Source: the human T2T-CHM13v2.0 reference genome, Homo sapiens
Direction: 5' to 3' (one strand)
Length of the DNA: 64,000 nt
Assembly: GCF_009914755.1 (NCBI RefSeq)
Contig: NC_060945.1
In this document: positions 4,551 to 61,800 of the stretch, one piece after another
Layout of the letters: every line of letters starts with the position of its first letter
Position numbering within the stretch: the stretch's first letter is position 1
Program-made: the position numbers and the translations under genes
The notes under the pieces: model-generated
Database searches by the model: none
Told to the model about the DNA's origin: nothing
What the model saw: the letters and a program-made list of their open reading frames with translations, nothing else

Positions 4551-7106
4551 AAAAAAAAATTCTTTTTCTTTAAACCTGATCATGTCTGTCCTCATAAATG
4601 CATGTTACACCCATCTCTCACCATCAATGCAACCCCACCCCGAGCAGTTGTTCACTCTTCTCTTCCCTTGTTCTCTGCACACCATGTGCCTCCATACCCC
4701 AGCCTCAGGCCTTTCTATACCATTTCCTATTTGGGGCACATAGTTTTTATTCAACTTTCATGCTGTCTTTTGAGAATCTACAATGTGGTTTGGATATGGC
4801 ACTTTTTATCAGGATGCCACATCAGAGTTGATAAATTCAAAGTAATATCGTTCTTTTTCCTGCCAAAGTCAGCTCCTCCTTTCCACTGCACTTTCCTGCC
4901 AGTGCCACCACACTTTCTCCTGTTGTGTAGGGAGAACACAGGTCACCTCCCTAACATGAAAAGGTGCTCAATAAAGATGTGTTGAATATATGAATGAGTG
5001 TTCTTAGAGGACACCCTTGTACCTGGACTGGTCCTTACGTGGGTGTAAGTTTTATTCTCTAAAAGGGGTGAGTGAGAGTTTATGCTAAGATTGTAAGCAA
5101 CCCTCAGGGCAGACTCTGGATGTATATTACAGAACTGCTGAACTTGTGGAATGTGCATATTTATACTGAAAATATTTAATGCCATATGTGTAAGACTTTT
5201 GCCAACTGGAATCTGAACATCAACAGCTTTGAAGGGCTTATTCTACCTTCTCAGCACAAAAATACTTTTTATGAATGCACATATTTATGTGCAAAAGTAT
5301 AAAAAATTGACTTTAAAATATACAACAAATTCATTTTAGCAATTGGCCCTGGGGACCTAGAAGGAGAATGAGATTGGGGTGGTAGGGGTGGAATATTAGT
5401 TAATAATGCTTTATGTTATTGAAAATAATTACTGAAAACCAATACAATAAAATATTAACATGTTAATTGAGTATAGTGCTTATATTCTTCTTTACATGTT
5501 TTAATATCTTTACAATTCCTTTTTTTGCTTTTGTTAAGGAAGTCACAGTTATTTGGCAGTATGTCTATAATGGTACATGAAATAATGTCTGATTTCTAAA
5601 CATTGACATCCTACATTAGATGAAATACATTAAGCATTAAGCTTTGATATTACACTACAAAATTAATTGAAGAAAGCCACCCCTGTTTCTTTCTTTTCTT
5701 TTTATGGTTATTATGTGCCCCATATGATGTGCAGGAGTTTTTTTTCTAGGCTTTGATTGTTTTAAATAAAATCAGAATTTGTTAAAGTTCAGTTAACACT
5801 CAGCTGTGAACCCTAAGGTACTGGGGTCTTTTTCAATGGGAGATCTTTAAGCATTATTCCAAACTATTCTATGCTAATTGATCTATTGATAATTTATAAT
5901 TTATTATTAAATACATTCAATTTCTTAAAAAGAAAAAGCAAAGAAACAAAGGGAAACATTTATTACAATTTAAATAAAGGAATTAGCAGTTGAAAACAAG
6001 AAAACCTATTCTGAGCATCCGTACTTCTTGGCAACCAAAACAATCAATGAAATCAATGCATTGAGTTAAACAGTTCCCAATTTTCCACTATGTTACCTGG
6101 AGAAAAAAACCCCAGTATCATAGGGTTAAACTTTGGGAAGGATTTTTCATAAGAATCTTAATATAAAGGTTCTTGAATGACATAATGTACAAGGTCTTTG
6201 ATAGCAATGCGCCCCACAGTGCAAAGATGTTTTACTAGTCCTGTTGGTGTCTCAAATTGGTTCTCGGTAAGTAATCTGGACATACTGTGAAATTATAATT
6301 CTGTGTAGACAATTCAACTTAAGGAGTTAGAGTGATGCAATCCAAATAGATGGCTTTCTTCTGATCTGGCTTAACAGAAATCTTGAAAAATCTGGGAGTA
6401 AATGTTGAATATATCCTCAGTTCTCAACCACTCTTCTTCCCTGAGAGACAACATCACAGGCAGGACATCCTCCCAAGGGTACACACAATATTATGTACAG
6501 TTCCCACACGAGAAACACATCATAATCTTAGTGACAATGATGTTCTCATAAGGTCAGTTATACTCAGTGTGCATAGTTGTCCAAGTGTGAGTATGAAACC
6601 AAGTTATTCGCAAGTACCACTACTCTGATTATTAGTAATAACAATCCACTTGTGACATAGCTTTTCTTTGCTGAAACAAAATATTGTTTTGACATCATGG
6701 TCAAAACATTGGTCTTAGGCAAATGCTCTCTATTATCTATTGTTGCCAAGCCTTTGAGAAGTGTTTTATGTGGGGCAAAAGGTCCCTTCCTGTCTCTTTG
6801 GTCAAAGCAAAGGAGGAGTACAGATGACTGAGAGAGTGATCACGCTGCTGTGCCCACCTATGAGGTAGACCTTGTTCCTGGATTGGGAGATGTTTTGTGC
6901 TGAGGGTGCAGTAGAAAGAGCACACAGCTAGCAGTAAAGAGAGGTGACCTTGACTGCAGCTCTGCCTCTGACTTCCTGAGTAACCTCAGACTAGTCATGC
7001 AGTGCCTGCTCCCACATTTCTTTTTGTAAGCTGCAAGGGCTGAATCAGACAACAGCCTCTAAGTTTCTTCTGAGCTCTCATACTCAGGGATGCCAATGAT
7101 GTTGGC

Positions 7107-35386: not shown

Positions 35387-35775
35387 TGTTAGGTTTGGAA
35401 GGCAAGGCGAGGGTTAAAGAAAGACAGAGAGACAGTTGGTGGCTTCAACAGCAACATCTTTATTGCCAGCAAAACCCTGGGGAGGAGGAAACCAGCTTAG
35501 TGCCAGCACCAACTGCCACTCACAGGCTGGGGTAATCATGGGACTGGGAGGGAGGGATCTGGGTGGTAGAGCTTGCTGCCCAGCAGGATATGGCAAGGAT
35601 GTCCCTGCAGTCAGGCTGTTGGGCCTTTGCCCAGGAGGACGCGATAAGGATGTTTCTGCAGTCACGTGGTTAGGAAGGATGTTTCTCATGGCCCAAGTTC
35701 CCATGGAACGTTTCACTGTGATCAGAGTCTGCAAAATGGCTGGAGGTTTACAAAATGGTACAGGTTAGACTAACA
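35387..35775 (-). mobile_element. LTR18-like (ERVL) solo LTR inserted next to a MIR
   Basis: Reverse complement starts TGTTAGTCTAACCTGTACCATTTTGTAAACC, contains AATAAA and ends TAACA. Confidence 0.65.
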
Positions 35776-38009
35776 GTAACATCTCCCAGGTAAGTGGTTC
35801 TACAAAGTAAACTTCCCTTGAGCATCTACACTGTACCAGACATGGTGCTAGGACCCAGGCCACAGGAGGAACAGGACAGATGAGGCCCCTGCCATCCTGG
35901 TGCTCACGTCTGATGAAGAAAGCTAACAGGTCATAAGACCAGGTCAGATGGTGGTGGTAATCAAAGACATTACCAGAGTGAGATGAGCTAGAAAGAAACT
36001 GAAGGAGCTCTTACAAACACAGTGACAGGTGGAGACCCCTCCAAAAGGTGACTTTTGAGCAGAAACCTGAGAAATGTGGAGGGGACTATGGAGAATGACA
36101 AGCCCCTGAAGCAACCCCAGGATTGGGAGGGCAAACCCGGCACCAGGAGGGCAATGGAATGGCCTGACCTGTGCGTCCTTCATGCTTCCTTTCTCAGTGA
36201 TGCACAAACAGAAACATGGGGCAATTTCGTGCAGGGTCCATGGATGAAACAAGAAGCAGCCGCACTGCAGAGCTGGAGTGGGGATAAAATCTGACCCAAC
36301 AGTAAAGCTAGAAGCAGGTGCTGCTTACCACTGACCACAGTGCAGGTCATGAAGCATAACCAGACCATGAAGGCACGTCCAGGGCCAGACCAGCTGGCCG
36401 GGCTGCCAACATCTTAGTAGAGATCCCAGGAGATCAGTTGAGCTGGTTAGGGGGAGAAAAAAAAAAACAGGAAAGCTTCAGAAAATTCCAGAGGACCCAT
36501 GACACTTAACATCAACTTCCCCCAAGTGGGATCTGTTTGTCATTGCTGGTTCTAAAGAGTTGGTTCCACCACCCCCACCTGCCCGTTGCCTAACCAGGGG
36601 AAAACTCAGGGTGGGGTCCACAGAAACAATCCCTCTGGAAGGGGAAAGGGTGTTTCTCATCCAAAACCAAGGGAAAACACCACTCATAAGGAGCAGAGGG
36701 GCCTGAAGGGAGAGACAGGATTCTGCTGCTCATTTGGATATCTGCTTCCCAGCAGGAAAGGGGACCACGCAGGATACAGTGTCTAAGTGGACCCTGTGCT
36801 GTGGGACTAGGGGGGCTGGTGCTGACTCACTGTTGGAGGTGAGCCACTATAGGAGGCTTAGAACCCCTCCCTGCAGCCTCTCCAGTCTAATAAGGGGATG
36901 GTAGTGTGGTCAGTGGGGGCATCCAGATGCAGTCAAAGGGCACAGTGAGTGATGTCTCCTCTGGCCTCCTCTTTCAGCTGCAGATTCTCCGAGTTACTGG
37001 AACAGCTTCTCCATGGCCCCACCAGCCTGGAGGGTGGTGACAGCTCCCAGATGACGCTAACCCCAGGGCCCTGCGCCATCACCCCTGGTTCCCCTTGGCC
37101 CTGCCCACACCTATGTAAACAGCTTTTTCTTAATGACCCTTCAGCCGCTTCGAGGTCCCTGCCAGTACCTGACTGCCACATTCCCCAAAGGGAACAGGCT
37201 CCTCAGCCCAGGAGCTGAGGTTTCTACAGGCACAGAGAAAACACTGTCCCAACTGTTGGAATGGAGTCGGGAGTGGAAAAAAGAACGTTTTTTCTCAATG
37301 CTTAGACTCACCAATTGTTTCATTTTATCACATGAAGGCTGTGTGGCATTTTGAAGTAGAATTAATAATCTACATAATTACAAATTATATTCTTAAAAGA
37401 AGGTGCTCAGTGCCATGCCTGACACATGGTGGAACTCCACGATGAGATGTGTGAGAAGCCAGGGTGCCATGGTTACAGACAAGGACTGCAGGTACAGACT
37501 GCTTGCTTCAAACCTGGACCAGCGGTGTGAATTTTGGCAACTCTCTGTATTGCTCTTTGCCACTGTTTTTTAATCTAACAACTAGAAGTAAAAACAAGGT
37601 TATTGTAAAAATTAAATGAATTAAAGTAAGCAGAGTGCCTACAACACCCCCAGGCACACAGTCAGCACTGAGCATGTTTTTCATTATACTCTTAAAGAGG
37701 TAAGAGTGAGAACACAGGTGCCAGCCATGAGCCTGGGTTTCTCTGGAGAGGCATCAGAGACTCTACTTTTAACATCCTCCATTCATTCATTTGACCCTGG
37801 TAAGGGAGGAGTCTCATGGGATACAAACAAGCATCCACCTTGGGGCCAGACTTCCCATGGTCAAAGTTGAACTCCACCACTGTTCAGCTGGGTGACTTTG
37901 GGCAAGTGACTTCCCCTCTCTGATCCTCATATTCCCTTTTGATAAAAACAGCACAATGGCAGGCCTATGGGGATTGAAGGAGCTGACAGAAAAATGTGTG
38001 CCTTAGTAT

Positions 38010-38400
38010 AATTTTCCTGGAAGTAGATCCTGAGGCAAATATTCAAATACAAAAATTCTATTTGGAGATAACTCTAGGATAGTAATTCGACTGCCAGTTC
38101 TTCCTTAGGGTGCGTATCCCAGGAAACACCAGTAGAGGAGTGGGGAACTGAGACAGGAAAGGAATGCAGCAGTTAAAGGGACCTTCATCAAGAAAGTTTC
38201 CCCTGTGGCAGCCAGGACTCAGCCCTGCCAGGTACATCTGCAGAGACAGCACAGAACATGTGCCTCAGAGTCACCCACCCAAAGCAAGGGAGCTGGGGTA
38301 TTTATCCACCAATACCCACCAGTCACTCCTCAGGGATCCTTCCAAGGGCATGATTCCTCCAGAATGTCCTGCCTGATCTGCAAGTGTCAGACCAGGGGTT
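38010..38400. mobile_element. Old MLT1-family MaLR LTR
   Basis: ggaagtagatcctgaggcaa...atcccaggaaacaccagtagaggagtgggga...ggagctggggtatttat. Confidence 0.55.
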
Positions 38401-39065
38401 GAGGACAGGGACCCTGACAGTACCTCCAGCAATGAGCAGGAACACAGCCTGGTGTGGAGAGTTTCAGTCAGTGATTCCAACTCATACACTTACCCACACA
38501 CCACACTCCAGCCCCAACAATGTGTATATGTACACACACATACATGCATACATGACTGTTACCCACTTTGATCCTGGTGACTCCATGGGATATACAGTAA
38601 GGCAGAAATCAGAGGGAAGAGCAGAATTAAGGGGAGTGAAAATCTTAAGAAGAAAATGCAAATTTAGGCAGAAAATCAAGGGGGAAGAGGAGTGTTCTGG
38701 ACACCAAATGCTGGCTGGGTGGCACCTACTCTACACACACTGTCACTAATTATCCAAGAAGCCTTGTGGGGTAGAAGAAATTCCTCTTAATTTACAGATG
38801 ACAGAAATGTAGTCCAGAAAACTGACTTTACTAATGTCTCAGCAAGCTAGTGGGTGATAGATATGGACTCCCAGATCTTTCTGTCCACAGAGCCTATAAA
38901 TTCTTCCTTGTTAGGCAGGCTGCATACCAGGCCCTGCTTCTGGGCTCTGCTCCTTTTCCTGCTAGGCAATCGTGGCAGAATTGACAGAAATGTTATCCCC
39001 CTTCACCACCTGGAGCAGAGCCAATGAGAGGAGCTGGGGAACAGGCCATGAGGCCCTGCACCCAC

Positions 39066-40024
39066 CATTCAATGTCTTCAGGATTGTGGTCCCTCAGAAC
39101 TCTTGCACCACATGATGGCATCACTCCTGGGTGTCTTCTGAGGTTGCATAGGATTCAGTAGAGGCCAGTGGCTGTGCTGTCATATCCTAAGAGGCAGCCA
39201 CGCAGGCTTGCGTCTCTTGGCTGCTTCAGCACCAGAGGTTGGACAGCGCCCATGCACTGAGGCCCTCGGGAGAATGGGAGGAGGGAAAGGAAGGGCAGAA
39301 TGGAGTGATGTAGTGTCCATCCACCATGTCCCTGGATGGAGAGACCCACACCGGGACCACCGCTGGTACTCATGAAGATGCCAGCCTCCATTTATATGTC
39401 CTCATCTGACAACTCCTTCCCATTTTCATCCTGGAGACAAGACCTCTGAACACATTAGCTCTGAGGGCACCTGAGTGTAACCTGAGACAGTCCCTGAAGA
39501 CTTTTCATCCAAGCAGGATCCCTCCCTTGCCATCTCCAGACCTGCCCCACAAGCTCCCTCCCGGGTCTCCTGGCTCTTGTTCACTCCTTCCAGGCAGCCT
39601 TCTACAGTCATCTCTAAAATATATCTGACTGTCCCTCCTTTATCCAGCACCTTCTATGGCTCCCCAGAGCCCTCCAGCTCAAGTTCAAGTTCTTTGATCA
39701 GACATTTGATCTCAAGCTGCATTCTACCTCCCAAATTAAGATACTGGAGAAGCCACCTTGCCCAGCACAAGTGCATCACTGAAGTCCCAAGTCTTGAACG
39801 TGGCCTTGGTCTTGAGGAAGTCATGAACACCCTGGCTAGTGAGGGTGCAGGGCTGCTCCAGGATGATGGTGTCTAAAGTTGTGCACAAGGTCACAGGCCC
39901 TGCAGAAGCATCACCCCTCAGGAATGGGTAGTACAGGAAGTCCATGCACAGGCAGATCTGCTGGTGCCATTACACTATGAGGGCACTGAGCTCAAATAGG
40001 GTGGCAATATATTCACTGGGATTC
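39066..40024 (-). pseudogene. Unprocessed CYP4F pseudogene fragment: exon 7 (40024-39757), exon 8 (39430-39364), exon 9 (39186-39066)
   Basis: NPSEYIATLFELSALIV*WHQQICLCMDFLYY...TLTSQGVHDFLKTKATFKTWDFSDALVLGK / DENGKELSDEDI*MEAGIFM / GYDSTATGLY*ILCNL..HP..PEDIEW; AG acceptors intact; CYP4F29P/30P/34P/35P-type locus. Confidence 0.9.
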
Positions 40025-40396
40025 CTGCAAGGTGAGGCTGGGGAGAGGAAGCAGCTCCATAACACATATGAAACCCTGGAAACCCTTCTCAGCCAAAATC
40101 TCAGGACCACATTACACCCAGAAATGGGTGCCCTCTGAGCACAATTGTCTCTCTGTCTCCCACTCTGAGCTCCCTCATGGCCCCACATGCCCCAGCCTGG
40201 CCCAGAGCTTGAAGCCCAGTAACTGTTCAGTCCATGGTGTTGACTGCTCCCTGGGACAGGAGAGCGCTTGGTGGCTCTGGGACTCCTCCTGTGGAACCCC
40301 TGCATCTGCCTTGGGACCTCCCAATTCCCATGGGAAGCCCCCATGGCTCTGGATTGCCCCACCTGCCCTGGGATCCTCCAGCCCCATAAGACTTAC

Positions 40397-42238
40397 TTGA
40401 TGCCTTAGACCTCCCAGAACATGACATGTTTCTCAGAATGTGGCTGATGTCCAGGGCCATCTGTGGATGTTTCTGGGGACTTCTAGCTGATTTCCTTTAT
40501 GGTCTGTAGGGCACGGCCAAGAGGAGAAACCAGCCCAACCTCAGAATGGACAAAAGGCTCACTGCCCCAATGGCAACCACCAAACTGTCAGCAGTGCTTC
40601 TGAAAGGAAAGGTTTCATTCTGCAGAAAGCTCCTTGTTTGGCTTCTTTCTGATGCCAGGGAGGGGTACCAATCCCTGCATACCTGTGGTGCCTACGTTAC
40701 CATCTCTGCCTAGGATGTGCAATGGGCCCCTGCTCTCACTGCGGGGTTGACGTTACCTCCAGCTGGAGACCTGGGCTCCTGACACCGCCTGGCCTCTTTG
40801 TCCTTCTCTGGATGAGGGTGGAAAGGCTGTACCTGGTATTTCCCTAGGTCCTTGGTTTCCACCTTCTAAACATCCAGCAGGAGTGACCATGCCCAGCACC
40901 ACACCTGAAGTGGGACTCCCTTGTGGAGCAGCCAAGAAATCTACAGATGGAAGAATGCTCTGGTGAGATAAGCCACAGGGGTCCCTGGGGAGGATCTGGG
41001 GCCAGAGGATTCTGGAGGTTTCCAGCCTTGGGCTCTGTGGGAACTATGATCTGGAGATATTTTTTTCATTTAGGTCACCAAGAGACAACCCCTAACCCCT
41101 GAGCAAGGCATGGTCAAGCTCTGGCATGAGATTCTCTTCCAGCAATGCAATGCTTGCAGAGACAGGTACAAAAGCTGGTGACCAGGCCTGCTGTCCCCCA
41201 GGTAAGGACAGTGTGCTACCCACCCTCTGAGAGGTGGTGCCAGTCCACAGCACTGGGTGCCTGTACCCCTGGCTCTGCAGATACCGGTCATGGAAGTCCC
41301 ATGGAGGTCCTCCCCTCTCCACATTACCTTCTTGCTGCTTCTAGACTTCTTCTAGTCATTAAGCATGTTGAGCCATTTTTCTGTGCATCCGATCTGACAT
41401 TTTTGCTCTCAGATGAAACACGACAAAGTAAGCTGAGCCACCAGGATTCCTGGAGGGAACCTTGGATGCTTGGTCTTGGGCTCCAGGGCACTGATGGGAG
41501 GGAGCCAGGGAAGAACAAACACTGGGGCTGAGCCCCTATGACCCAATGGGAACTTGTGGCCTGTCCTTATGGCCCCAAGACACCCTGTCCTCAGGCCACA
41601 GGCACCACGGGCTTTGGTCAGATCCCAGCCTCCCAGTAGTGTCCCGGCACTAGTGGGTGCTGACCCCTGAGCCACAACCACAGTTCTGGGTTTGGGGTAT
41701 GGTAAAACCACCCCAGGGACAGAGTTCTGGGGCCGGGTTTGGGAGGAACCAAGGCACCTCCCAGGGATGGTGTGTCACTCCTACTTGCCATGAAATGTGC
41801 ACAAAGGCTGTCCTCCTGCCCATCCCATCCTGCTGGACAGGATGGAGGAAGTGAGGGAACAGGCAGCGTGGACAGCTAGGGTGCAGGGAGAGGCAGGTGC
41901 ATGCTGGGAGGTCAGGCCCTGTGAGGGCTGTGGGGGCATCAGGTGGAGTGGGCTTCAGGTACACCCTCAGTGCAATGGGCAGGTCTCAGGCCAGGCTTCC
42001 TGGACCCCGGCTGGGTGATGTGGTCACTCCCTGGGGGACTACTGTCAGACCCTGGCCACGCACCCTGGGCAGCACTGTCCCATCCCAGGACTGGATTTTC
42101 TGAGTCCTCAGACAGGAAAACACTGCCCAGGCCTGACAGACTGGGAAGACCTCTTAAGTCCTCCATCCCTAGACCAGCCTCCCAACAGCAGGGACAGTCT
42201 CCTACCTTTACCTTCAGGGCACTGACTGATCCATCTCA
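40397..42238 (-). pseudogene. Four fossil exons of a TBC1D3/TBC1D26/USP6(NL)-family RabGAP N-terminus (42238-42206, 41405-41328, 40940-40833, 40503-40397)
   Basis: AG...GT-flanked exons of 33, 78, 108 and 107 nt translating (some with frameshifts) EMD..SALKVK / QKCQIGCTEKWLNMLND*KKSRSSKK / ISWLLHKGVPLQVWCWAWSLLLDV*KVETKDLGKYQ / TIKEIS*KSPE..MALDISHILRN(HVMFW)..GIK, comparable to TBC1D26/TBC1D3 exons (recalled sizes 40/81/108/110). Confidence 0.8.
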
Positions 42239-42800
42239 CTCTAAGGCAACCAAGGCAGAGCTGAGGACCTGTGCCAGGCTGGAAGCCAGTCCCCTCCCTA
42301 AATAGGCCTTAGGGAAGCCTCATCCCTGTCCCAGTGCACTGCAAGTTTCAGCCCAGGAGACACATAGGGAAGGGAGGATGGGGCCTCCCCACTGGCTGAC
42401 CCTGGAAAAGCGGGACCTGGGAGAAGAGGGAGTGCAGGGCTGGCAGGGGATTCTCCAGGCCCATGGAGAGCTCAGTCTGCACCATGGGGCTGCCCCTCCT
42501 GGGCTGGAGGCTGTGCCCTCTGCAGGATCTGAGGAAGTGCAGTCCTGAGATGGGACAGTGCTACCCAGGTTGGGTAGCCAGAGCCTGACAATAGTCCCCC
42601 AGCAAATGACCACATCACCCAGCCAGGGTCCAGGGAGCCTGGGCCAAGACCTGCCCAGTGCACTGACGGTGCACCTGGAGCCCAGTCCACCTGATGCCCC
42701 AACAGCCCTCACTGGGTCTGACCTCCCAGCATGCACATGTCTCTCCCTGAAACTCAGCTGCCCACCCTGCCTGTTCCCTGGCCTCCTCCATCCTGTGCAG
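41832..42800. repeat. ~270-bp diverged inverted repeat (arms ~41832-42098 and ~42534-42800)
   Basis: caggatggaggaagtgagggaacaggcag...gcactgtcccatcccaggactg on + matches the reverse complement of 42534-42800. Confidence 0.9.
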
Positions 42801-42989
42801 CCCATAGACTGTGACCATCTCTCTGGCCACTCTGGTACTTCCTTTACTTTTGTCCTGTCAGAATCCCTGAGCAAGATCTCCCAGGTCCATCCAAACACCT
42901 GCTTTGTCCACTTTTGACTGGGCCATTGAACACCACTGGGCCATCCCAGCTGTCCACAGGGTCCTCGATAACATGCATTTCTCCTGACA

Positions 42990-43867
42990 TCTCCCTGCAG
43001 TGCTCAGCAGCCCCCACTGACCAGGTCCCTGCTGACCAGATCCAGCATATCAGATCCTCCCTGACCACACCCTCACTGACTAGACCCCCATCACCAGGCC
43101 TCACTAACTAGATTCCCGCTGACAGGCCCACAATGACCAGGACTCCACTGATGAGGACCTTACTGATAAGTCCTCACTTGTAAGGCCTCACTGACCAGGT
43201 CCTTACTGACAAGGCCTCGCTGATCAGGTTCCACCGATAATGACCCCATTGCCTGGTCCCACAGATGAAGCCCCACTGAGCAGGCCTCCAGGGAATAGGC
43301 TGCCAGTGACCAGGCTCCTACTAACCACGCCTGAGGTGACCAGATGCCCCTGACTGGGACTCTAATGAGTATGCCCCACTGAACAGGCATGCACTGCTCA
43401 GATCCCCGCTGACCTGGTCACCCCGTAGACCAGTGCTACAAAAGCCACCACTGATCAAGTCCTCTCTGACCAGGCCCCCACTGATTAGGTTCCACTGAGC
43501 AGCCTGCCCTGACCAGGGCCCCACTGACAAGCGCCTCTGCTGACTAGGTCCCATGTGGCCAGGCCTCCACTGAATAACACCCCTTGACCTGGTCACCAGT
43601 AACCCAGCCCAATCAGACAAGGCCACAACTAAGCCCCAGCTGACAAGGTCTCCACTGACCAAGTCCCACAGCCCAGGTTGGCATTGACCAGACACCAAAC
43701 ATTTGTCTGCCACTAGGAACCCACTCACCAAGAGCTGCACTACTAGATCCCTCTAATGAGACCCTCTCTAGGCAGACACCTGCTGACCACCCCCCACTAA
43801 ATAGGCCTCACTGACAAAGTCCCAACTGACTAGGTCCCCTGAGCAGGCCTACACTGATCAGGCCCCT
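42990..43867. repeat. Degenerate ~15-bp minisatellite, consensus ~AGGCCCCACTGACC(A)
   Basis: Recurrent cactgacc(a/t)gg core with ~15-nt spacing. Confidence 0.8.
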
Positions 43868-46800
43868 CCTAACCATATCAGAAGGCCAAGCGGCAATGAG
43901 ATGTTTCATATGGCAGGAGTAGGAGCAAGACAGAGAGAGGAAAGAGGTGTGACATCCTGTTAGACAACCAGATCACATAAGAACTCACCATCAGGACATC
44001 GGCATCAAGAAAACTAACCAATGGTGAAGGATCCTCCACCCACACCACCGCCCACTGTTTCCAGGCAGAAGCCTCCTGCAGAAGCAGAACCTCTTAGGAA
44101 ACATCCACTATGGCAGTGCAGAAGGAAAATATAGGCTTTGAGCCCCCACACAGGAGGCCACCTTCCTCCAGACTCCAGGTTCATAAGCCCACCAACAGCT
44201 CACACCCTCAGTATGGAAAAGCTACAGGCACTCGACACCAACCCAGCCCATGAGAGCAGCCATGGGGGCAACACCCTGCAAAGCCAGAGATGCACTGTCC
44301 TAGTAGAGGTTTCCCATGAGCCTCTGCCTCTGCAGCAAGTTACTCCCACCCTCCCACCACCCTACTGACGACCTACTCCTCCCCACACTACTCCTCCTTT
44401 TCCTTCCACCCCAACCCCCTCCCATCCAAGATTAAATCACCTCCCACCTGGCACACCTCCGACATTAAGGATGACACGTGAGTTTTACAGGGACACACAG
44501 CCAACCCATATTATTCTGACCCTGATACCCCAGAACCTCATGTCCTTCTCACAGAGCAAAACACAATCATGCCTTTTCAAAAGTTTCCAAAAGTCTTAAC
44601 TCATTCCAAATGTAAAAATTTCAAAGTCTCATCTGAGACAAGGTTACAATCCCTTCTGCCAATGAGTCCCTGAATTTAAAAGGGATTTCTTTTCCTTCAA
44701 GGTACAATAGGCATTGGGTAAGTTTTCTCAATCCAAAGGGAAGAAATTCCCCAGAAAAATAACACAAATGCAAGTCCAAACCCCAGCAGGACAGTATTCA
44801 TTCAATACAGTATCTCACAGCTCTGTAATCATCAAGAGAACTCACTATCATGCAGACAGCATTAAGGAGACAGTGTTAAACAATTTATGAAGAATCCAAT
44901 CCCCACCCTCATCTTTCACACCCATCCACAAAATAATCTCCACCATTCTCCCCACACCCCTACCTCCAACACCCACTCTTCGCCATGATTAAATCACCTC
45001 CCACCAGGCCCCACCTTTAACTTTCACCATCACAATTCCATGAGAGTATTGGTAGGGACAAAAAGTCAAATCATATTATTCTGACATGGGTCCCCCCCAA
45101 TCTCATATCCTTGTCACACTACAAAATACAATGATGCCTTCTGTACAGTCCCCCAAATTCTTAACTCATTCCAGCATTTACTGAAATGCCCAAAGCCCAG
45201 AGTCTCATCTGAGGCAAGTCTACAGTCCCTTCTGCTCATGAGCCACTGAATTACATATAAAGCAAGTTTACTACTTCCAAGGTGCAATGATTGTACAGGC
45301 GTTGGGTAAGCATTCCCAGCCAAAAGGAAAAAAATTGCCAGAAAGAAGCACAAAAAACAGATGGGGCTTACAGACCCCATGCAAGTCAAAAACCCAGCAG
45401 GCCAGTCATTGAATCCTACAGCTCCCAAATCATATTTTCTGAATCTGTATCCCACATCTGGAGCACAGGGGTGGATAGCTGGGCTCCCAAGGCCTTGGGC
45501 AGCTCAGCATCTGTGACTGTGCAGGGTCTATCCCCCACAGGTGACCTCATGGGCTGGGCTGGTGTTGAGTGCCTGTGGCTTTTCCACACTGAGGGTGCCA
45601 GCAGTTGGCGGGTCTATGAATCTGGGGTCTGGAAAATGGTGCATTCCTGTGTGGGCGCTACAACCCTATATGTTCCTTCTGTACTGCCCTAGTAAATGTT
45701 TCCCATGAGGCTCTGCCTCTTGGAAAAGCTGCTGTCTCAACACCCAGGTTTTCCCATACATACTCTGGAGTCTAGACAAAGGCTCCCAAGCCTCTAGTTT
45801 TGTGCTCTGTGCACCTGCTGGCTTAGTACTATGTGGAAGCCACCAAGGTTTGAAGCTTGCACCCCTGAAGCAGTGATGCAAGCTGTACCTGTGCATCTTT
45901 CAGCCGTGACTGGAGCTGGAGCTGGAGCTGGAGCTGCAGGGATGCAGGCAGCAGTGTCCTGAGGATGAACACAGCAACGCGACCATGGGACTCACCCAGG
46001 AAAGCATTCTTGGGTCCTAGAACTCGGGGCCTGTGACAGCAAGCTCTGCTGCAAAGGTCTCTGAAATGGCTTCAAGACCTTTTAACCTTGTCTTAGCTAT
46101 TAGCACTGGGCTCCATTTTATGCAAATTTCTGAAGCCTTCTTGAATTTTCCCACTGAAAATCAGCTTTGCTTTTTGACCACTTGGCCAGGCTGCAAATTT
46201 TCCAAACTTTTAAGTCCTGCTTCTCATTTAAATATAACTTTCAACTTGAGGTCATTTATTCAGTCACAGAGAAGACCACAGGCTGTTCAAAACAGACAAG
46301 ACACCTCTTGCGCTTTGCTGCCTACTTCATTTCACCAGATATACCCTAAATTATCACTCTCAAGTTCAAAGTTTCAGAGGTCTCCAGGGCAGGAACACCA
46401 TCCAGCCAAGTTCTTTGCTAAGGCAAAACAAAAGTAACCTTAACTCCTGTTCCCAGTAAGTTGCTCATTTTCATCTGAGACCTTCTAAGTCTGGCCTTCA
46501 CTGTCCATCCTTCAGTCACTCTTTTAATTATAGCTATGTAACAAGTCTCTATGGTCACCGTTTTAATTTAACACATCTCTACAATAGTCCAAATTTTCCC
46601 TCATCTTTCTGTCTTCTTCCAAGCCCCCCAAACTGTGCAGCATCTGGTCGTTACCCACGTCTGAACCTGCTTCTACATTTTCAGCTACCGTTGTGGCAGC
46701 CTGGCAATGTGGTAAAAGAAGAAAAGTCCATTTTCAGGGGGAAAATTCAAGAAGCCTTCAGATATTTGCATATAGAAGAAGCCAAATGCTAATAGTAAAA

Positions 46801-49800
46801 AAAAAAAAGATGAAGAAACCTTGAGGGCATTTCATAGCTCCACTTTACAGTACAAATTTTCTGTAGTATTATTTTTAAAAGAGGTTTAACTGGCTCATGT
46901 TTCTGCAGGCTGTAAAGGCAGCAAGTGGCTTCTGCTTCTGGGAGGACTCAGGAAGCCTCCCAATCATACCAAAAGGCCAAGTGACAATGAGATGTTCCAT
47001 ATGGCAGGAGTAAGAAGAAGATACAGAGAAGAAAGAGGTGCCACACCCGGTTATACAACCAGATCTCATGAGAACTCACTATCAGAAGATCAGCCTCAGG
47101 AAGATTAACCAATGGTGAAGGATCCGCCCGCACCACCCCTCGCTGTTTCCAGGCGGAAGCCTCCTGCAGAGGCAGAACCTCTTGGAGAACCTCTACCAGC
47201 GCAGTGCAGAAGGAAAATATGAGCTTGTAGCCCCCACACAGGAGGCCACCATCCTCCAGACAGGAGATTGATAAACCCACCAACAGCTTGCACTCTCTGC
47301 GTGGAAAAGCTACAGGCACTCAACACCAGCCCAGCCCATGAGAGCAGCCATGGGGGCTACACCCTGCAAAGCCACAGGTGCACTGCCCTAGTAGAGACTT
47401 TCCATGAGCCTCTGCCTCTGCAGCAGGCTACTTCCCCCTCCTACTACCCACCACCCTATCACCACCCTACTAACAACGTACTCCTCACCCTACCAACCCC
47501 TTTTCCTTCCACCCCCGGCCCCCGAACATCCATGATTAAATCACCTCCAGCCAGGCCCCACCTCCAATATTAAGGATTACAATTCACATGAGTTTTGGTA
47601 AAGAAACACAGCCAAATCATATTATTCTGACCCTGATCCCCACAGTCTCATGTCCTTCTCACAGAGAAAAATATATTCATGCCTTTTCAAAAGTTTCCAG
47701 AAGTCTTAACTCATTCCAACATTAACTCAAATGTAAAAAAATCAACATCTCATCTGAGACAAGTCTACAGTACCTTTTGCCTATGAGTCCCTGAATTTAA
47801 AAGGATGTTCTTTTCTTTCAAGGTACAATAATGGTACAGGCTTTGGGTAAGATTTTTCAATCCAAAGGGAAGAAATTTCCCAGGAAGAAAACACAAATGG
47901 GACCACAGGCCCAATACAAGTCCAAAACCCAGAAGGCCAGTATCCATTCAATCTTACAGCTCCAAAATCATGAAGAGAACTCACTATCACAAGGACAGCA
48001 ATAAGGAGAGTGTTTAATCATTTGTGAAGCATCCGTCCCCCACCCCCAATTTTCACTGCTCACCCGCACCATAAATCCCCCAGTCTCCCTAAGCCCCATC
48101 TTCCAACCCCCACCCTCCACCGTGATTAAATCACCTTCCTCCAGGCCCCACCTTTAACATTCCGATGACAATTCCACATGAGTTTTGGTAGAGACACAGA
48201 GCTGAATTTTATTATTCTGTCCCTGGCTCCCCAAATCTCATGTCCTTCTCACATTGCAAAATACAATGATGCCTTCCCTACAGTCCCCCAAAATCTTATA
48301 TCATTACAGTATTTATACAAATGTTGAAAGCTTAAAGTCTCATCTGACACAAGGCTACAGTTTCTTAGGCCCATGAGCCTCTGAAATATAACGCAAGTTA
48401 ACTACTTCCAAGGTACAATGCTTGTACAGGCATTGGGTAAGCATTCCCAGCCAAAAGGAAGAACGTTGCCGGAAAAAAACAAAACACAGATAGGACTTAC
48501 CGGCCCCATGAAACTACAAACCCAGAAGGCCAGTCATTCCATCCTACAGTTCCAAAATCACCCTTTTTGAAACCTTGTCCCACATCCAGGGCACAGGGGT
48601 GTGAGGGCTGGGCTTCCAAGGCCTTGGGCAGCTTGGCACCTGTGGCTTTGCAGGGTTTATGCCCCACAGCTGGCCTCATGGGCTCGGCTGGTGTTGAGTG
48701 CCTGTGACTTTTCCTCACTGAGAATACAAGTTGTTGGGGGGTCTATGAATCTGGGGTCTGCATGATGGTGGCCTCCAGTGTGGGGGCTCCAACCCCATGT
48801 TTTCCTTCTGCACTGCCCTAGTAGAAGTTTCATATAAGGCTCTGCCTTTTTGGGGTGCTTTTGCCTGGACACCCAGGCATTTCCATACATCTTCCAAAAT
48901 CTATAGAGAGGTTCCGAAGCCTCTAGTCTCATGCTCCGTCCGCCAGTGGCTTAACACTATGAGGAATTTACCAAGGCTTCTAGCCAGCACCCTCTGTAGC
49001 AGTGACCCAAGCTGTAGCTGTGCATCTTTCAATCATGGCTGGAGCTGGAGCTGGAGCTGGAGATGGAGCTGGAGATGGAGCTGCAGGGATGCAGGCAGCA
49101 GTGTCCTGAGGCTCCACACAGAGGGGGTCATGGAACTGGCCCAGGAAACTGTTCTTCTCTCCTAGGCCCCAGGGCCTGTAACAACAAGGGCTGCTGCAAA
49201 GGTCTCTGAAATGCCTTCAAGGCCTTTTCCCTATTGTCTTGTCTATTAGCACTGGGCTCCTTTTCATGCAAGTTTCCGAAGCCTTCCTCAATTTTCCCCC
49301 TGAAAATCAGCTTTTCTTTTGGACCACATGGCCAGGCCGCAAATTTTCCAAACTTTTGAGTTCTGTTTCTCATGTAATGTAAGAGTTGGGACTCATTTAA
49401 TGTAAGTCTCATCCAGAGGTCATTTCCTCCATCCCACATAAGAGCACAGGCTGTTCAATGGAAACAGGACAACTCTTGAGCTTTGCTGCTCAGTTCATTC
49501 CACCAGATACTCAGTAAATCATCACCCTCAAGTTCAAAGTTTCACAGATCTCCAGGGCGAGGTCACCGTGCAGCCACGTTCTTTGCTAAGGAAACAAAAG
49601 TAACTTTGACTTCTGTTCCCAGTAAGTGCTTCATTTTCATCTGAGACCTTCTAAGTCGGGCTTTCACTGACCATTTTCCTGTGAGCCTTCTGATCACAAA
49701 TGTTTAACAATTCTTTACAAAGATCCAAACTTTCATTCATCTTCTTGTCTTCGAAGCCCTCCAAACTCTTCCGACCTCTGTATGCTACTCCCTTCTGAAC

Positions 49801-58800: not shown

Positions 58801-61800
58801 CTCTGAAGCAGTGACACAAGCTGTACCTGTGCATCTTTCATCCATGGCTGGAGCTGGAGATGGAGCTGCAGGGATGCAGGCAGCAGTGTCCTGAGGCTGC
58901 ACACAGCAGTGGAGCCATGGGGCTGGTGCAGGAAACCATTCTTTTCTCCTGGGCCCCGGGGCCAGTGACAGCAAGGGCTGCTACAAAGGTCTCTGAAATG
59001 CCTTCAAGACCTTTTTCCCATTGTCTTGAATTATTAGCACTGGGATCCTTTTTATGCAAATATCTGAAGCCTTCTTCACTTTCCCCCAGAAAATCAGCTT
59101 TTCTTTTTGACCACTTGTGCAGATTACAAATTTTGCGTATGTTTAAACTCTCCTTCTCATTTAAATATAAGTTCCAACTTATAGTCATTTCTTTGATCAC
59201 ACATAGGTGCGCAGGCTGTTCAATGTAGGCAGGACAACTCTTGAGCATTGTTGCTTAGAAGTTCATTCTACCAGATACACTCTAAATCATCACCCTCAAG
59301 TTCAGTTTCACAGATCTCCTGGAAAGGATCAATGTGTAGTCAATTACTTTGCTAAGGCAAAACAAAAAAACCTTGGCTCCTCTTCCCAGTGAGTACTTCA
59401 TTTTCACCTGAGATCTTGTAAGCCTGACATTCACTGTCCATCCTTATGTTAGCCTTTTAATCACAACTATTGAACAAGTCTCTGCAATGGTCCAAACTTT
59501 CCCTCATCTTCCTGTTTTCTTCCAAGATCTCCGAACTCTCTAACCTCTGGCCATTACCTAATTCAGAACCTGCTTCTACACTATCAGGTATCATTTTCGC
59601 AGCCTGGCAATGTGGTAACAGAAGAAAAGTCTATTATCAGGGGGAAACATCAAGATGGTATCCAATATTTGCATTGAAAAAAGCTCAGTGCTAATAACCA
59701 AGAGATTGGGGGAAGGCCTAGAAGTCATTTCATAGCTTCACTTCGCAGCATTAATTGTCTGTATGTACATAAAGAAAAGAGGTTTAGTTGACTCACAGTT
59801 CTTCAGGCTATAAAGAAAGCATAGTGGATTCTGCTTGTAGGAGGACTCAGGAAGCCTCCCAATCAAACCAGAGGCCAAGCAGCAATGAAATGTTTCATAT
59901 GCCAGAAGTAGAAGCAAGACAGAAAGAGGAAAGAGGTGCGACATCCTCTTATACAACTAGATCTCATGAGAGCTCACTGTCAGGAGATCAGCATCAAGAA
60001 GATGGTGCTTCACTGTTGGTGAAGGAACCGCCCACCACCCCATATCCACCACCCACTGTTTCCAAGTAGAAGCCTGAGACAGAGGCAGATCCTCTTGGAA
60101 AACCTCTACTATGGCTGTTTAGAAGAAAACTATGGGCTTGGAGCCCCCATGTAGGATACCAGCATCCTCCAATCCCCAGATTCATAGAACCATCAACAGC
60201 TCACACCCCCAGTATCGAAAAGCTACAGGCACTCAACACCAGCCCAGCCCATGAGAGCAGCTACAGGTGCTAAACCCTGCAAAGCCCCAGGTGCACTGCC
60301 TTAGTAGAGTTTTTCCATGAGCCTCTGCCTCTGCGGCAGGCTACTCCCATCCTGCTACACACCACCCTACAGCCAGCCTACTCCTCCCCACCTTACCCAC
60401 CTGTTTTGACTTCCAATCCAACCCCTCTCCCATCCATGAATAAATCACCTCCCACCAGGCCTCACCTGCAACATTGGGGATTACAATTACATGTGAGTTT
60501 AGGTAGGGACACACAGCTAAACAATATTATTCTGACCCTGATCCCCCAAATATCATATCCTTCTCACAGAGTAAAATACAATCATGCCTTTTCAAAAGCT
60601 GCCAAAAGTCTTAAGTCATTTCAGCATTAACTCAAATTTAAAAAGTTCAAAGTCTCACCTGAGAAAAGGCTACAGACCCTTTGGCCTATAAGTTCCTGAA
60701 TTTAAAAGGGATTTATTTTCTTTCAAGATACAAAGATGGTACAGGCATTGGGTAAGTTTTGTCAATCCAAAGGGGAGAGGTGTGCCAGGAAAATAACACA
60801 AATGGGATCACAGGGCCAATGCAAGTCCAAAACCCAGGAGGCCAGTATCCATTCAATCTCACTGCTCCAAAACAATCACAAGAACTCATCATCATGAGGA
60901 AAGGATTAAGGAGATGGTGTTTAACCATTTGTGAAGGATCCTACCCCCACCCCCACTTTTCACCCCTCACCCCCACCATAATCCACCCATTCTCCCCAAT
61001 CCCCACCTTCCAATACCCAGTGCCCTCCACGATTAAATCACCTTCCACCTGGCCCCACTTTCAACATTTCTGATTACAATTCCATATGAGTTTCCATAGG
61101 GACACACAGCCAAATCTTATTATTCTGTCCCTGCCCCACAAATCTCATGTCCTTCTCACTTTGCAAAATACAATGATGCCTTACTTACCATTCCCCAAGC
61201 CACTGTGCTTTTTTTTTTACAGCCTGCAGAACCATGAGCCCATTAAACCCCTTTTTGTTATGATCATACAGAAAATTAGTATTGTGAAGTGAAGCTATGA
61301 AATGCCTTCAATGACTTTTCCCCATCATCTCGGCTAAGACCCCCAAGGTCTTAACTCATTCCATCATTTACTCAACTGTCTGAAGCCCAAAGTCTCATCT
61401 AAGACAAAGATGCAGTCCCATCTCCTCCTGAGCCTCTGAAATACAAAGCAAGTTAACTACTTCCAAGGTATGATTGTCCAGACATTGAGTAAGAATTCCC
61501 AACCAAAAGGAAGATTTATGCCAGAGACAAGAACAAAACACAAACGGGACTTATAGGTCCCATGAAAATCCAAAACCCAGCAGGCCAGTTATTCAAACCT
61601 ACAGCTCCAAAGTCATCCTTTTTCAATCCTTGTCCCACATCCAGGGCACAAGTGTATGAGGGCTGGGTTCCCAAGGCCTTGGGCAGCACTCTACCTGTGG
61701 CTTTGCAGTGTTCAGTCCCCACAGCTGCCCTCATGGGCTGTGCTGGTGTTGAGTGCCTGTAGTTTTTACCCACAGAGGGTACAAAGTTCTTGGTGGGTCT

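What the first reader, a model, noticed from the sequence alone, without database searches (positions are those of the whole stretch)
39066..42238. Fossil TBC(RabGAP)-CYP4F chimeric gene hidden in the 'CYP4F pseudogene'
Seen: four consecutive AG/GT-bounded minus-strand exons encode the N-terminal TBC region (KWLNML, HKGVPLQVW..AWSLLLDV, LDISHILRN). The last ends in phase 2 (ATC AA|gtaagt, 40397). Only 372 nt downstream, CYP4F exon 7 starts with a phase-2 acceptor (ttgcag|G AAT CCC AGT GAA TAT, 40024), so splicing gives an in-frame ...GIK-NPSEYIA... junction. I see no CYP4F exons 1-6 and no downstream TBC exons. Known: TBC1D3-family duplicons create fusion genes; USP6/Tre2 is TBC1D3 fused to USP32. 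Inference: this is a parallel exon-shuffling event, spread with the pericentromeric duplicon. It is now disabled by stops or indels in each exon, but most splice sites are intact, so it may still be spliced as a lncRNA.
Basis: partly seen in the sequence, partly recalled or inferred. Interest (0 to 1): 0.85.

Follow-up and report, generated by a model that had tools for sequence, protein, structure and literature searches.

The report
TBC1D26/28–CYP4F mosaic transcribed pseudogene
The human "CYP4F29P" pseudogene is really a patchwork of four exons from a TBC1D26/28-like RabGAP gene joined to three middle exons of a CYP4F gene; the patchwork was copied to 17 places in the genome, was already broken before it spread, and is best read as spliced non-coding RNA rather than a lost fusion protein.

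Summary
On the minus strand, window 42923-40178 derives from a TBC1D26/TBC1D28-type RabGAP gene and carries four internal exons. Window 40195-38916 derives from a chr19 CYP4F gene and carries exons 7, 8 and 9 only. The breakpoint lies at 40178-40195, inside the 372-nt "intron", in about 18 nt that look alike in both sources. The TBC exon ends after two bases of a codon and CYP4F exon 7 starts with one base, in the source genes too, so the junction is phase-compatible.

The same junction occurs at 17 loci on chr2, 8, 9, 13, 18, 20 and 21, so it formed once and then spread. An orangutan predicted protein reads across it.

The "fossil fusion gene" reading is not supported. There is no TBC start exon, no complete TBC domain, and no CYP4F exons 1-6 or 10-13. 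Two stop codons and four frameshifting deletions are present in every copy that keeps the site, including the basal chr8 copy. A third stop, in T2, is in 12 of 17 copies. Exons diverge about as fast as introns among copies.

Inherited splice sites are used in RNA: RefSeq NR_026755.1 exon 1 ends at the TBC donor, and a human protein model maps as a TBC-to-CYP4F splice chain on the chr13 copy. It is a mosaic transcribed pseudogene, new only as an annotation detail.

The parts
40178..42923 (-). Segment derived from a TBC1D26/TBC1D28-type gene: the 3' part of the intron before exon T1, through to the first part of the intron after exon T4
   Evidence: blastn matches TBC1D28 locus L009 and TBC1D26 locus L024 at 65-79% identity. 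Eight of 8 TBC-family-only loci end their match at window 40178.
42206..42238 (-). TBC exon T1, equivalent to TBC1D26 residues about 54-66 (EMELPRVSALEVK). It is 33 nt against 40 nt in the source gene.
Evidence: Alignment. A 7-nt deletion is present in 16 of 17 copies; the chr8 copy keeps 40 nt.
41328..41405 (-). TBC exon T2, equivalent to residues 67-93 ([27 protein letters not shown]). It has a TAG stop at 41354-41352 where the source has Trp.
   Evidence: The TAG is in 12 of 17 copies, including the basal chr8 copy; five chr9 copies have CAG.
40833..40940 (-). TBC exon T3, equivalent to residues 94-129, where the RabGAP-TBC domain begins. It has a TAG stop at 40868-40866.
   Evidence: tblastn E 2.4e-6. 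It is 108 nt, as in the source. The TAG is in 15 of 17 copies and absent from the chr8 copy and C2a.
40397..40503 (-). TBC exon T4, equivalent to residues 130-166. Its donor AA|gtaagt is the donor of RefSeq exon 1. It has a TAA at 40407-40405 and a TAG at 40485-40483 that is private to this copy.
   Evidence: The source exon is 110 nt and ends after two bases of a codon. All 17 copies share two 1-nt deletions and the TAA. The window has a third, private 1-nt deletion, giving 107 nt.
40178..40195 (-). Breakpoint between the TBC-derived and CYP4F-derived DNA: about 18 nt that resemble both sources (CTGGGGCATGTGGGG-like)
   Evidence: TBC homology ends at 40178 and CYP4F homology starts at 40195.
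38916..40195 (-). Segment derived from a chr19 CYP4F gene: the last about 170 nt of intron 6, exons 7 to 9, and about 150 nt of intron 9
   Evidence: blastn to L010 (C19:15701517-15702840) gives 75% identity over 1333 nt.
39757..40024 (-). CYP4F exon 7, residues 217-306. It has a TAA at 39972-39970 and a 2-nt deletion.
   Evidence: tblastn E 1e-12 to 1e-15. The TAA is in 16 of 16 copies that keep the site and the 2-nt deletion is in 17 of 17.
39361..39430 (-). CYP4F exon 8, residues 307-329. It has a TAA stop.
   Evidence: The TAA is in 9 of 15 copies that keep the exon.
39066..39186 (-). CYP4F exon 9, residues 329-372. Its donor at 39066 is the end of RefSeq exon 2.
   Evidence: tblastn E 2e-5. 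A shared 1-nt deletion is in 16 of 16 copies that keep the exon. The 13/18/21 clade has an extra 8-nt deletion and a TGA.
35889..38508 (-). DNA derived from chr19 intergenic sequence 5-10 kb downstream of the same CYP4F gene. RefSeq exons 3, 4 and 5 lie in it; exon 6 (35440-35739) lies just beyond the mapped homology.
   Evidence: blastn to C19:15715159-15719535 gives 66-75% identity. The CYP4F gene's last coding exon ends at C19:15709804. There is no p450 coding similarity here.
40397..40671 (-). RefSeq NR_026755.1 exon 1. It lies wholly in TBC-derived DNA (the T3-T4 intron plus exon T4).
   Evidence: Hub annotation, combined with the homology map.
41832..42801 (.). Inverted repeat whose arms (41832-42104 and 42529-42801) bracket exon T1
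   Evidence: The arms are 273 nt and 85% complementary, with 424 nt between them. The same arrangement is found at both chr17 TBC1D26/28 loci and in the paralogues.

Best explanation
This is a mosaic (chimeric) transcribed pseudogene.

Origin:
- An internal 2.75-kb fragment of a TBC1D26/TBC1D28-lineage RabGAP gene (exons for residues about 54-166) was joined head to tail, in the same orientation, to an internal fragment of a chr19 CYP4F gene.
- The CYP4F fragment holds the end of intron 6, exons 7-9, and then downstream intergenic DNA. Exons 10-13 are lost.
- The join lies in intronic DNA at a short stretch that looks alike in both sources.

Spread:
- The join happened once. The unit was then copied as a block to at least 17 loci on chr2, 8, 9, 13, 18, 20 and 21.
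- It predates the human-orangutan split.

Coding state:
- Neither half has a start, an end or a complete domain.
- The last common ancestor of the surviving copies already carried stops and frameshifts in both halves.
- The copies have drifted neutrally since.

What survives is RNA-level function of inherited splice signals. The TBC exon T4 acceptor and donor and the CYP4F exon 9 donor, together with cryptic sites, are stitched into polyadenylated non-coding transcripts (CYP4F29P and its paralogues).

Shown here: homology, breakpoint, copy number, shared lesions, and use of the splice sites in annotated models. Inferred: a single origin by microhomology-assisted joining during duplicative transposition, and that the locus never coded for a protein.
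For: Source identity:
- TBC1D28 exon T4 (L009) is 97% identical to named human TBC1D28 and Pan TBC1D26 proteins that carry PF00566.
- The window aligns to both chr17 loci across exons and introns.
- The chr19 exon 7 hits Pfam p450 at 4.5e-11 and named CYP4F proteins.
- tblastn places CYP4F residues 218-372 at 40020-39065.

Single junction:
- In the junction search all 25 of 25 candidates were scored. Seventeen span the junction, and 8 TBC-family loci all stop at window 40178.

Fragmentary content:
- No TBC residues 1-53 or beyond 166, and no CYP4F residues 1-217 or 373-520, occur in the window.
- Pfam places the TBC domain at residues 106-306 and p450 at 53-504.

Dead ancestor:
- The chr8 copy is basal in both halves (FastTree).
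- Lesions shared with it: the T4 TAA (17/17), two T4 1-nt deletions (17/17), the exon 7 TAA (16/16) and 2-nt deletion (17/17), an exon 9 1-nt deletion (16/16), and the T2 TAG (12/17).

Neutral drift:
- Exon versus intron p-distance between copies is 0.098 vs 0.098 and 0.11 vs 0.12 in the TBC half, and 0.10-0.11 vs 0.08 in the CYP half.

RNA:
- RefSeq NR_026755.1 joins 40397 to 39256 (hub annotation).
- Human model P0155 (hCG1793603) maps to the chr13 copy at 96% identity as four blocks with GT/AG at every junction. It enters at the T4 acceptor and continues into CYP4F exons 7 and 9.

Age:
- Pongo protein P0154 reads through the breakpoint.
Against: - The junction is phase-compatible and in the same orientation, which a once-coding fusion would also need. 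By chance this happens about 1 time in 6.
- The T4 acceptor, T4 donor and exon 7 acceptor are intact in 17 of 17 copies. That could hint at constraint on splicing, although at 5-18% divergence from the ancestor it is not beyond chance.
- The stem between the source genes and the copies' common ancestor is long (0.22-0.32 substitutions per site). A coding phase before that ancestor cannot be excluded from human paralogues alone.
- Gene conversion among copies could in principle have spread lesions.
- The closest extant "sources" are only 65-79% identical, so the true donor genes may be lost paralogues.
- Pfam gave no hit on any single TBC exon. The TBC assignment rests on homology to named TBC1D26/28 genes.
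Confidence: 0.8

Rival explanations
1. Fossil of a once-functional, in-frame TBC-P450 fusion protein gene. It would have been created by exon shuffling, then inactivated and dispersed.
For: - The two halves share orientation, and the phases are compatible in both source genes.
- The exon boundaries are conserved.
- The chr8 copy keeps T1 at full length and lacks the T3 and exon 8 stops.
- The long stem before the common ancestor leaves room for an early coding phase.
Against: - There is no initiator exon. TBC residues 1-53 are absent and the TBC homology ends at 42923.
- Only about 30% of the TBC domain and the middle third of the P450 fold are present, without the C-terminal exons.
- At least two stops and four frameshifting deletions are shared by every copy that keeps the site, including the basal one.
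- Exons evolve as fast as introns among copies.
- None of 32 TBC hits and none of the 120 listed CYP4F hits of 659 found combines PF00566 with PF00067.
Confidence: 0.06
2. A functional long non-coding RNA family. On this view the TBC-derived first exon and donor and the CYP4F-derived exons are kept because the spliced RNA does something.
For: - RefSeq and Celera-type models use the inherited sites (hub annotation).
- The T4 acceptor and donor and the exon 7 acceptor are intact in 17 of 17 copies.
Only listings and abstract starts were seen.
Against: - Other inherited sites decay freely. The T3 donor is GT in only 9 of 17 copies and the T1 source-position donor in only 6 of 17.
- Exon and intron divergence are equal.
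- Different copies use different cryptic sites (NR_026755.1 versus P0155).
- No functional study was found.
Confidence: 0.12
3. The TBC resemblance is spurious, and the CYP4F fragment simply sits next to unrelated GC-rich DNA.
For: Pfam finds nothing in the single exons. T2 alone reaches only E 0.13.
Against: - There are 2.7 kb of collinear DNA homology to both TBC1D26/28 loci, introns and a flanking inverted repeat included.
- All four exon boundaries coincide with the source genes' boundaries.
- T3 scores E 2.4e-6.
- Eight TBC-family loci match up to the same breakpoint.
Confidence: 0.01

Closest known systems
USP6 (Tre2), the hominoid fusion of TBC1D3 and USP32
   Same: A TBC1D3-superfamily 5' portion is joined to an unrelated gene's 3' portion in primate segmental duplications and is transcribed. 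Basis: a passage in PMC2621205 citing Paulding et al. 2003. The USP6 locus also shares the TBC intron sequence up to the breakpoint, at 76% identity.
   Different: As I recall, USP6 keeps an open frame, a start codon and complete domains. Here both halves are internal fragments, and the common ancestor of all copies was already disrupted. The donor lineage is TBC1D26/28, not TBC1D3.
Mosaic or fusion transcripts from juxtaposed duplicons in pericentromeric segmental duplications (recalled: Bailey et al. 2002 on chromosome 22, She et al. 2004; not retrieved here)
   Same: Gene fragments of different origin are juxtaposed, copied as a block between chromosomes near centromeres, and spliced together through inherited and cryptic sites into non-coding RNA.
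   Different: I found no paper that describes this particular TBC1D26/28-CYP4F pairing. The copies are unusually diverged: K2P is up to 0.24 between the chr8 copy and the rest.
TBC1D26 / TBC1D28 (17p11.2 RabGAP-TBC genes)
   Same: They are the closest extant relatives of window 42923-40178. The exon boundaries are identical, T4 ends at the same codon position, and the same inverted repeat surrounds T1.
   Different: DNA identity is only 65-79% (K2P about 0.35). Only four of their exons are present. There are stops and frameshifts.
CYP4F cluster genes on chr19 (nearest: the copy at C19:15689144-15709804, whose exon 7 is 92% identical to a Pongo 'CYP4F2-like' protein)
   Same: Exons 7-9 with their introns are collinear with window 40195-38916. 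Intergenic DNA downstream of the same gene follows in the same order and orientation.
   Different: Identity is 75-78%. Exons 1-6 and 10-13 are missing, so the C-terminal part of the P450 fold (residues 373-524, where I recall the heme-binding region lies) is absent.

Membership tests
RabGAP-TBC domain proteins (Pfam PF00566) | A complete TBC domain of about 200 residues that is recognisable by the family profile | tested here: not met
   Pfam gives no hit on T3 of the window or on single source-gene exons. The genome-wide PF00566 scan lists no hit inside C21:12152001-12216000. The domain spans residues 106-306 of macaque TBC1D26, and the window encodes only up to residue 166.
RabGAP-TBC domain proteins (Pfam PF00566) | Catalytic arginine finger and glutamine finger motifs (IxxDxxR and YxQ; recalled) | tested here: not met
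   The exon that carries the later part of the domain (profile positions 82-122, L024 7536-7634) is absent from the window. The T4 region is frameshifted.
Derivative of the TBC1D26/TBC1D28 gene lineage | Collinear DNA homology that includes introns, with exon boundaries and codon positions identical to those genes | tested here: met
   These are the best TBC-family matches at the breakpoint, at 80% identity against 74-76% for the six other TBC-family loci.
TBC1D3 proper (17q12 cluster) | Closest similarity to the TBC1D3 paralogues | tested here: not met
   No 17q12-cluster locus (C17:37-39 Mb, where one search finds the TBC1D3-type exons) appears among the DNA matches.
Cytochrome P450 (Pfam PF00067), CYP4F subfamily | A full P450 fold, including the C-terminal heme-binding region | tested here: not met
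   Only residues 217-372 of about 520 are represented. A 71-aa open piece of exon 7 gives no Pfam hit. Exons 10-13 are absent.
Cytochrome P450 (Pfam PF00067), CYP4F subfamily | Sequence derivation from a CYP4F gene | tested here: met
   tblastn gives E 1e-15, 0.002 and 2e-5 for exons 7, 8 and 9. There are 1333 nt of DNA homology to a chr19 CYP4F gene, and that gene's exon 7 hits p450 at 4.5e-11.
Fusion (chimeric) protein-coding gene of the USP6 type | An open reading frame with a start and a stop that spans parts of both source genes, now or in the reconstructed ancestor | tested here: not met
   There are stops in T2, T3, T4 and exons 7, 8 and 9 of the window. Lesions shared by all 17 copies place the disruption in their common ancestor.
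Fusion (chimeric) protein-coding gene of the USP6 type | A transcript that joins sequence from both source genes by splicing | tested here: met
   The hub annotation has NR_026755.1 joining 40397 to 39256. P0155 maps as a GT/AG-bounded chain on the chr13 copy. The canonical 40397->40024 junction itself was not testable.
Duplicon mosaic or transcribed pseudogene dispersed by segmental duplication | Several copies on different chromosomes that share the identical junction between pieces of different origin | tested here: met
   Seventeen of 17 junction-spanning loci lie on seven chromosomes.
Duplicon mosaic or transcribed pseudogene dispersed by segmental duplication | Location next to centromeres | not testable with these tools
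   No cytoband or satellite map was available. That the coordinates (for example C8:43.8 Mb, C20:30.1 Mb, C18:14.5 Mb, C13:17.9 Mb) are pericentromeric is recalled, not tested.

The most novel reading that the evidence does not exclude
Before the last common ancestor of today's 17 copies, the same-orientation, phase-compatible join of TBC exon T4 to CYP4F exon 7 was part of an expressed chimeric coding gene in an early anthropoid. Alternatively, the TBC-derived first exon and donor now drive a lncRNA family kept by selection. In either case the whole "CYP4F pseudogene" family would be the remains or re-use of a primate fusion gene that formed independently of USP6.
Probability: 0.07. Interest if true: 0.55.

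Novelty: new member of a known kind. Interest (0 to 1): 0.3.

Why it matters
This corrects how a 17-member human pseudogene family is understood.
- The loci named as CYP4F pseudogenes contain only CYP4F exons 7-9.
- The 5' part, including the first exon and first splice donor of the RefSeq transcript, comes from a TBC1D26/28-type RabGAP gene.
- The 3' exons come from chr19 intergenic DNA.

Three practical consequences follow.
- Expression studies that list CYP4F29P, CYP4F35P, CYP4F26P and others as "P450 pseudogene lncRNAs" are measuring something different from what the names suggest.
- Read mapping among 17 paralogues is affected.
- The shared junction gives a clean single-origin marker for tracing how this block moved between chromosomes.

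It does not reveal a new protein or a new mechanism.

Tried and rejected
- **Pfam on single exons**. No RabGAP hit for the window's T3, for source exons T3 and T4, or for two further TBC1D28-locus reading frames. The exons are too short. I replaced this test with named full-length relatives and tblastn.
- **Own-genome search upstream of the TBC part** (window 42900-47300). It was swamped by repeats: 10563 candidates, 1 scored. The origin of the DNA 5' of 42923 is unknown.
- **Possible CYP4F exon 3 remnants** at 45348-45404 and 61534-61587 (E 0.14-0.4). Rejected: the two sites are copies of one window-internal repeat (78.6% over 397 nt) with no DNA homology to the exon 3 region.
- **"LPPISALEPK" at 41504-41475** as a second T1-like exon. 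Rejected: by the DNA alignment it lies in the intron homologue between T1 and T2.
- **Exon-versus-intron divergence as a sign of past constraint**. There is none among copies. Against the TBC source, the exons are more diverged than the introns (0.33 vs 0.23), which I cannot explain. Only alignable intron columns were counted, which may bias this.
- **Absolute dating.** I left it out because no other primate genome was available for calibration.
- **Literature.** Six searches found no structural description. For these I saw only listings and abstract starts.
Full report
**Observation.**
- T3 is 40940-40833. It is preceded by tctgtag, followed by gtacag, and translates to ISWLLHKGVPLQVWCWAWSLLLDV*KVETKDLGKYQ.
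- T2 ends AAG AAG|gtaatg at 41328.
- T4 is 40503-40397 and ends ATC AA|gtaagt.
- After 372 nt the sequence reads ttgcag|G AAT CCC AGT GAA TAT at 40024.

**Identity of the 5' half.**
- A DNA search of the window's own genome with 39700-42500 found two chr17 loci that match window 42923-40178 in collinear blocks at 65-79% identity.
- The T4-equivalent exon of one locus (L009) is 97% identical to proteins named TBC1 domain family member 28 (Homo sapiens) and member 26 (Pan paniscus). All of these carry PF00566.
- Mapping these proteins on the loci gives the exon map. The window holds the equivalents of four consecutive internal exons, covering TBC1D26 residues about 54-66, 67-93, 94-129 and 130-166.
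- tblastn of these proteins over the whole 64-kb window finds T3 (E 2.4e-6 and 4e-5) and T2 (E 0.13), and nothing for residues 1-53 or beyond 166. T4 is visible only at DNA level because of frameshifts.
- Pfam places the RabGAP-TBC domain at residues 106-306 of the 492-aa macaque protein. The window therefore encodes at most the first 60 or so residues of the domain.
- Single exons gave no Pfam hit.
- A small correction: T2's ancestral acceptor is at 41407-41406.

**Identity of the 3' half.**
- Window 40195-38916 matches C19:15701517-15702840 at 75% identity over 1333 nt.
- That chr19 exon hits Pfam p450 (4.5e-11). It is 92% identical to a 524-aa Pongo protein named "cytochrome P450 4F2-like" and 80-82% identical to human CYP4F proteins.
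- tblastn places CYP4F residues 218-306, 306-326 and 329-372 at 40020-39757, 39433-39371 and 39187-39065. These are exons 7, 8 and 9 of the gene mapped.
- No other CYP4F residues are in the window. Two weak hits to residues 84-101 are chance matches inside a window-internal repeat.
- Downstream, window 38508-35889 matches C19:15715159-15719535. This is intergenic DNA 5-10 kb past the last coding exon of the same chr19 gene, in the same order and orientation.
- The chr19-derived block therefore lacks about 12 kb that includes exons 10-13.
- RefSeq exons 3, 4 and 5 of CYP4F29P lie in this intergenic-derived DNA, and exon 6 lies just beyond the mapped homology. None of these four exons shows P450 coding similarity.

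**Breakpoint and phase.**
- TBC homology ends at 40178 and CYP4F homology begins at 40195.
- The roughly 18 nt between them resemble both sources, which is microhomology.
- A 271-nt query centred on the junction returned 25 candidates, and all were scored. Seventeen loci span it: C21, C18, C13, C20, C8, seven on C9 and five on C2. Eight TBC-family loci (six on C17, one on C1, one on C6) all stop at the base that corresponds to window 40178.
- The junction is therefore unique and arose once.
- In the source genes, T4 is 110 nt and ends GGA GTC AA|gt, while exon 7 begins G AAG CCC.
- For two randomly joined fragments, same orientation and matching phase have a chance of about 1 in 6.

**Was it ever a gene?**
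- I fetched all 17 copies. I aligned them with the source loci and scored each exon in the source gene's codon columns.
- FastTree places the source sequences next to the chr8 copy in both halves. That copy is therefore sister to the other 16.
- Lesions shared with it:
  - T4: TAA three codons before the donor (17 of 17) and two separate 1-nt deletions (17 of 17).
  - Exon 7: AAA->TAA (16 of 16 that keep the site) and a 2-nt deletion (17 of 17).
  - Exon 9: a 1-nt deletion (16 of 16).
  - T2: TGG->TAG (12 of 17; five chr9 copies have CAG).
- Lesions that arose after the chr8 split:
  - T1: 7-nt deletion (16 of 17).
  - T3: TAG (15 of 17).
  - Exon 8: TAA (9 of 15).
- Private to this window: a TAG in T4 and a third 1-nt deletion. 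That deletion makes T4 107 nt and, by length alone, restores the two-base codon overhang at the donor. The other 16 copies have 108 nt.
- Among copies, exons diverge about as fast as introns.
- There is also no initiator exon, no complete domain and no 3' coding end. This argues that the common ancestor was already non-coding and that the fusion was most likely never a protein gene.
- An earlier coding phase on the long stem (0.22-0.32 substitutions per site) cannot be formally excluded.

**Splicing and age.**
- The hub annotation shows that NR_026755.1 exon 1 (40671-40397) lies wholly in TBC-derived DNA and ends at the T4 donor. It joins to 39256, a cryptic acceptor in CYP4F intron 8. Exon 2 ends at the exon 9 donor (39066).
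- A database protein named hCG1793603 isoform CRA_b (Homo sapiens, P0155) maps to the chr13 copy at 96% identity as four blocks bounded by GT/AG.
- In window coordinates the chain runs: a donor at 40683, the T4 acceptor at 40503, a donor at 40363, an acceptor inside exon 7 at 39899, a donor at 39800 and an acceptor inside exon 9 at 39137.
- TBC-to-CYP4F spliced RNAs are therefore annotated from at least two paralogues, although through partly cryptic sites. The canonical 40397->40024 junction remains untested.
- A Pongo abelii predicted protein (P0154) reads straight across the breakpoint and exon 7. It is closest to the C9:33.6 Mb subclade, at 83%. The mosaic therefore predates the human-orangutan split.
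- Kimura two-parameter (K2P) distances:
  - within the 13/18/21 clade: 0.02-0.035
  - across the main clade: 0.07-0.135
  - chr8 copy to the rest: 0.175-0.25
  - to TBC1D26/28: 0.35 (0.48 for the chr8 copy)
  - to the chr19 CYP4F: 0.29
- The nearest extant "sources" may therefore be cousins of the true donors.

**Comparison and verdict.**
- The structure works like the mosaic transcripts known from juxtaposed duplicons (recalled literature).
- It resembles USP6 only in having a TBC-family 5' part. USP6 as a TBC1D3-USP32 fusion rests on a passage in PMC2621205.
- It fails the defining test of a fusion gene, an open frame now or in the ancestor.
- I found no paper that describes the TBC-derived part of the CYP4F pseudogene family. 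The searches were made, with listings and abstract starts only. Older subscription literature on P450 pseudogenes is outside the library.
- It is a new member of a known kind. It is useful for annotation and as a duplication marker, and of modest interest.

Noticed in passing
window 41832-42104 and 42529-42801: A 273-nt inverted repeat, 85% complementary, brackets TBC exon T1 with a 424-nt loop. The same arrangement is present at both chr17 TBC1D26/28 loci and in the paralogues, so it is an old feature of that gene's intron-exon region.
   Followed up: partly
window 41649-42500 (query 1-852): Fourteen further loci (C21 x3, C22 x3, C14 x2, C4 x2, and one each on C1, C9, C13 and C20) match only this piece, which is T1 plus upstream DNA, at 90-94% identity, and all stop at about 41649. 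This looks like a younger sub-duplicon cut out of the mosaic and spread widely, apparently into acrocentric short arms.
   Followed up: no
own genome, e.g. C14:13533944, C18:15153733, C22:16475830, C9:47830922, C21:5642524, C21:9758589: The PF00566 scan found about 20 isolated RabGAP-TBC exon hits (profile positions about 82-124), mostly in open frames of 82-98 aa, on acrocentric chromosomes and at what appear to be pericentromeric coordinates. This is a separate dispersed TBC fragment family, not adjacent to the mosaic copies.
   Followed up: no
window 45200-45600 and 61380-61780: Two stretches on the same strand are 78.6% identical over 397 nt. They are an internal duplication or an unmasked repeat, and they caused spurious weak CYP4F tblastn hits.
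   Followed up: partly
window 41040/41041: The chr13/18/21 clade lacks about 80 bp that the chr2, chr9, chr20 and chr8 copies have here. The chr18 copy also lacks window 39732-39660.
   Followed up: no
L010 (C19:15696500-15706400), exon 7 acceptor at local 5190-5191: The nearest chr19 CYP4F copy has GG where the acceptor AG should be, and several of its exons match the Pongo protein imperfectly (63-98% identity). It may itself be a pseudogene in human, while orangutan is annotated with an intact 524-aa protein.
   Followed up: partly
TBC exons T1-T4 versus introns, window 42900-40200: Against TBC1D26, the exons of the mosaic are more diverged than the alignable intron columns (0.33 vs 0.23). 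This is the opposite of the usual pattern and is unexplained. Fast evolution of the source gene or alignment bias are possible causes.
   Followed up: no
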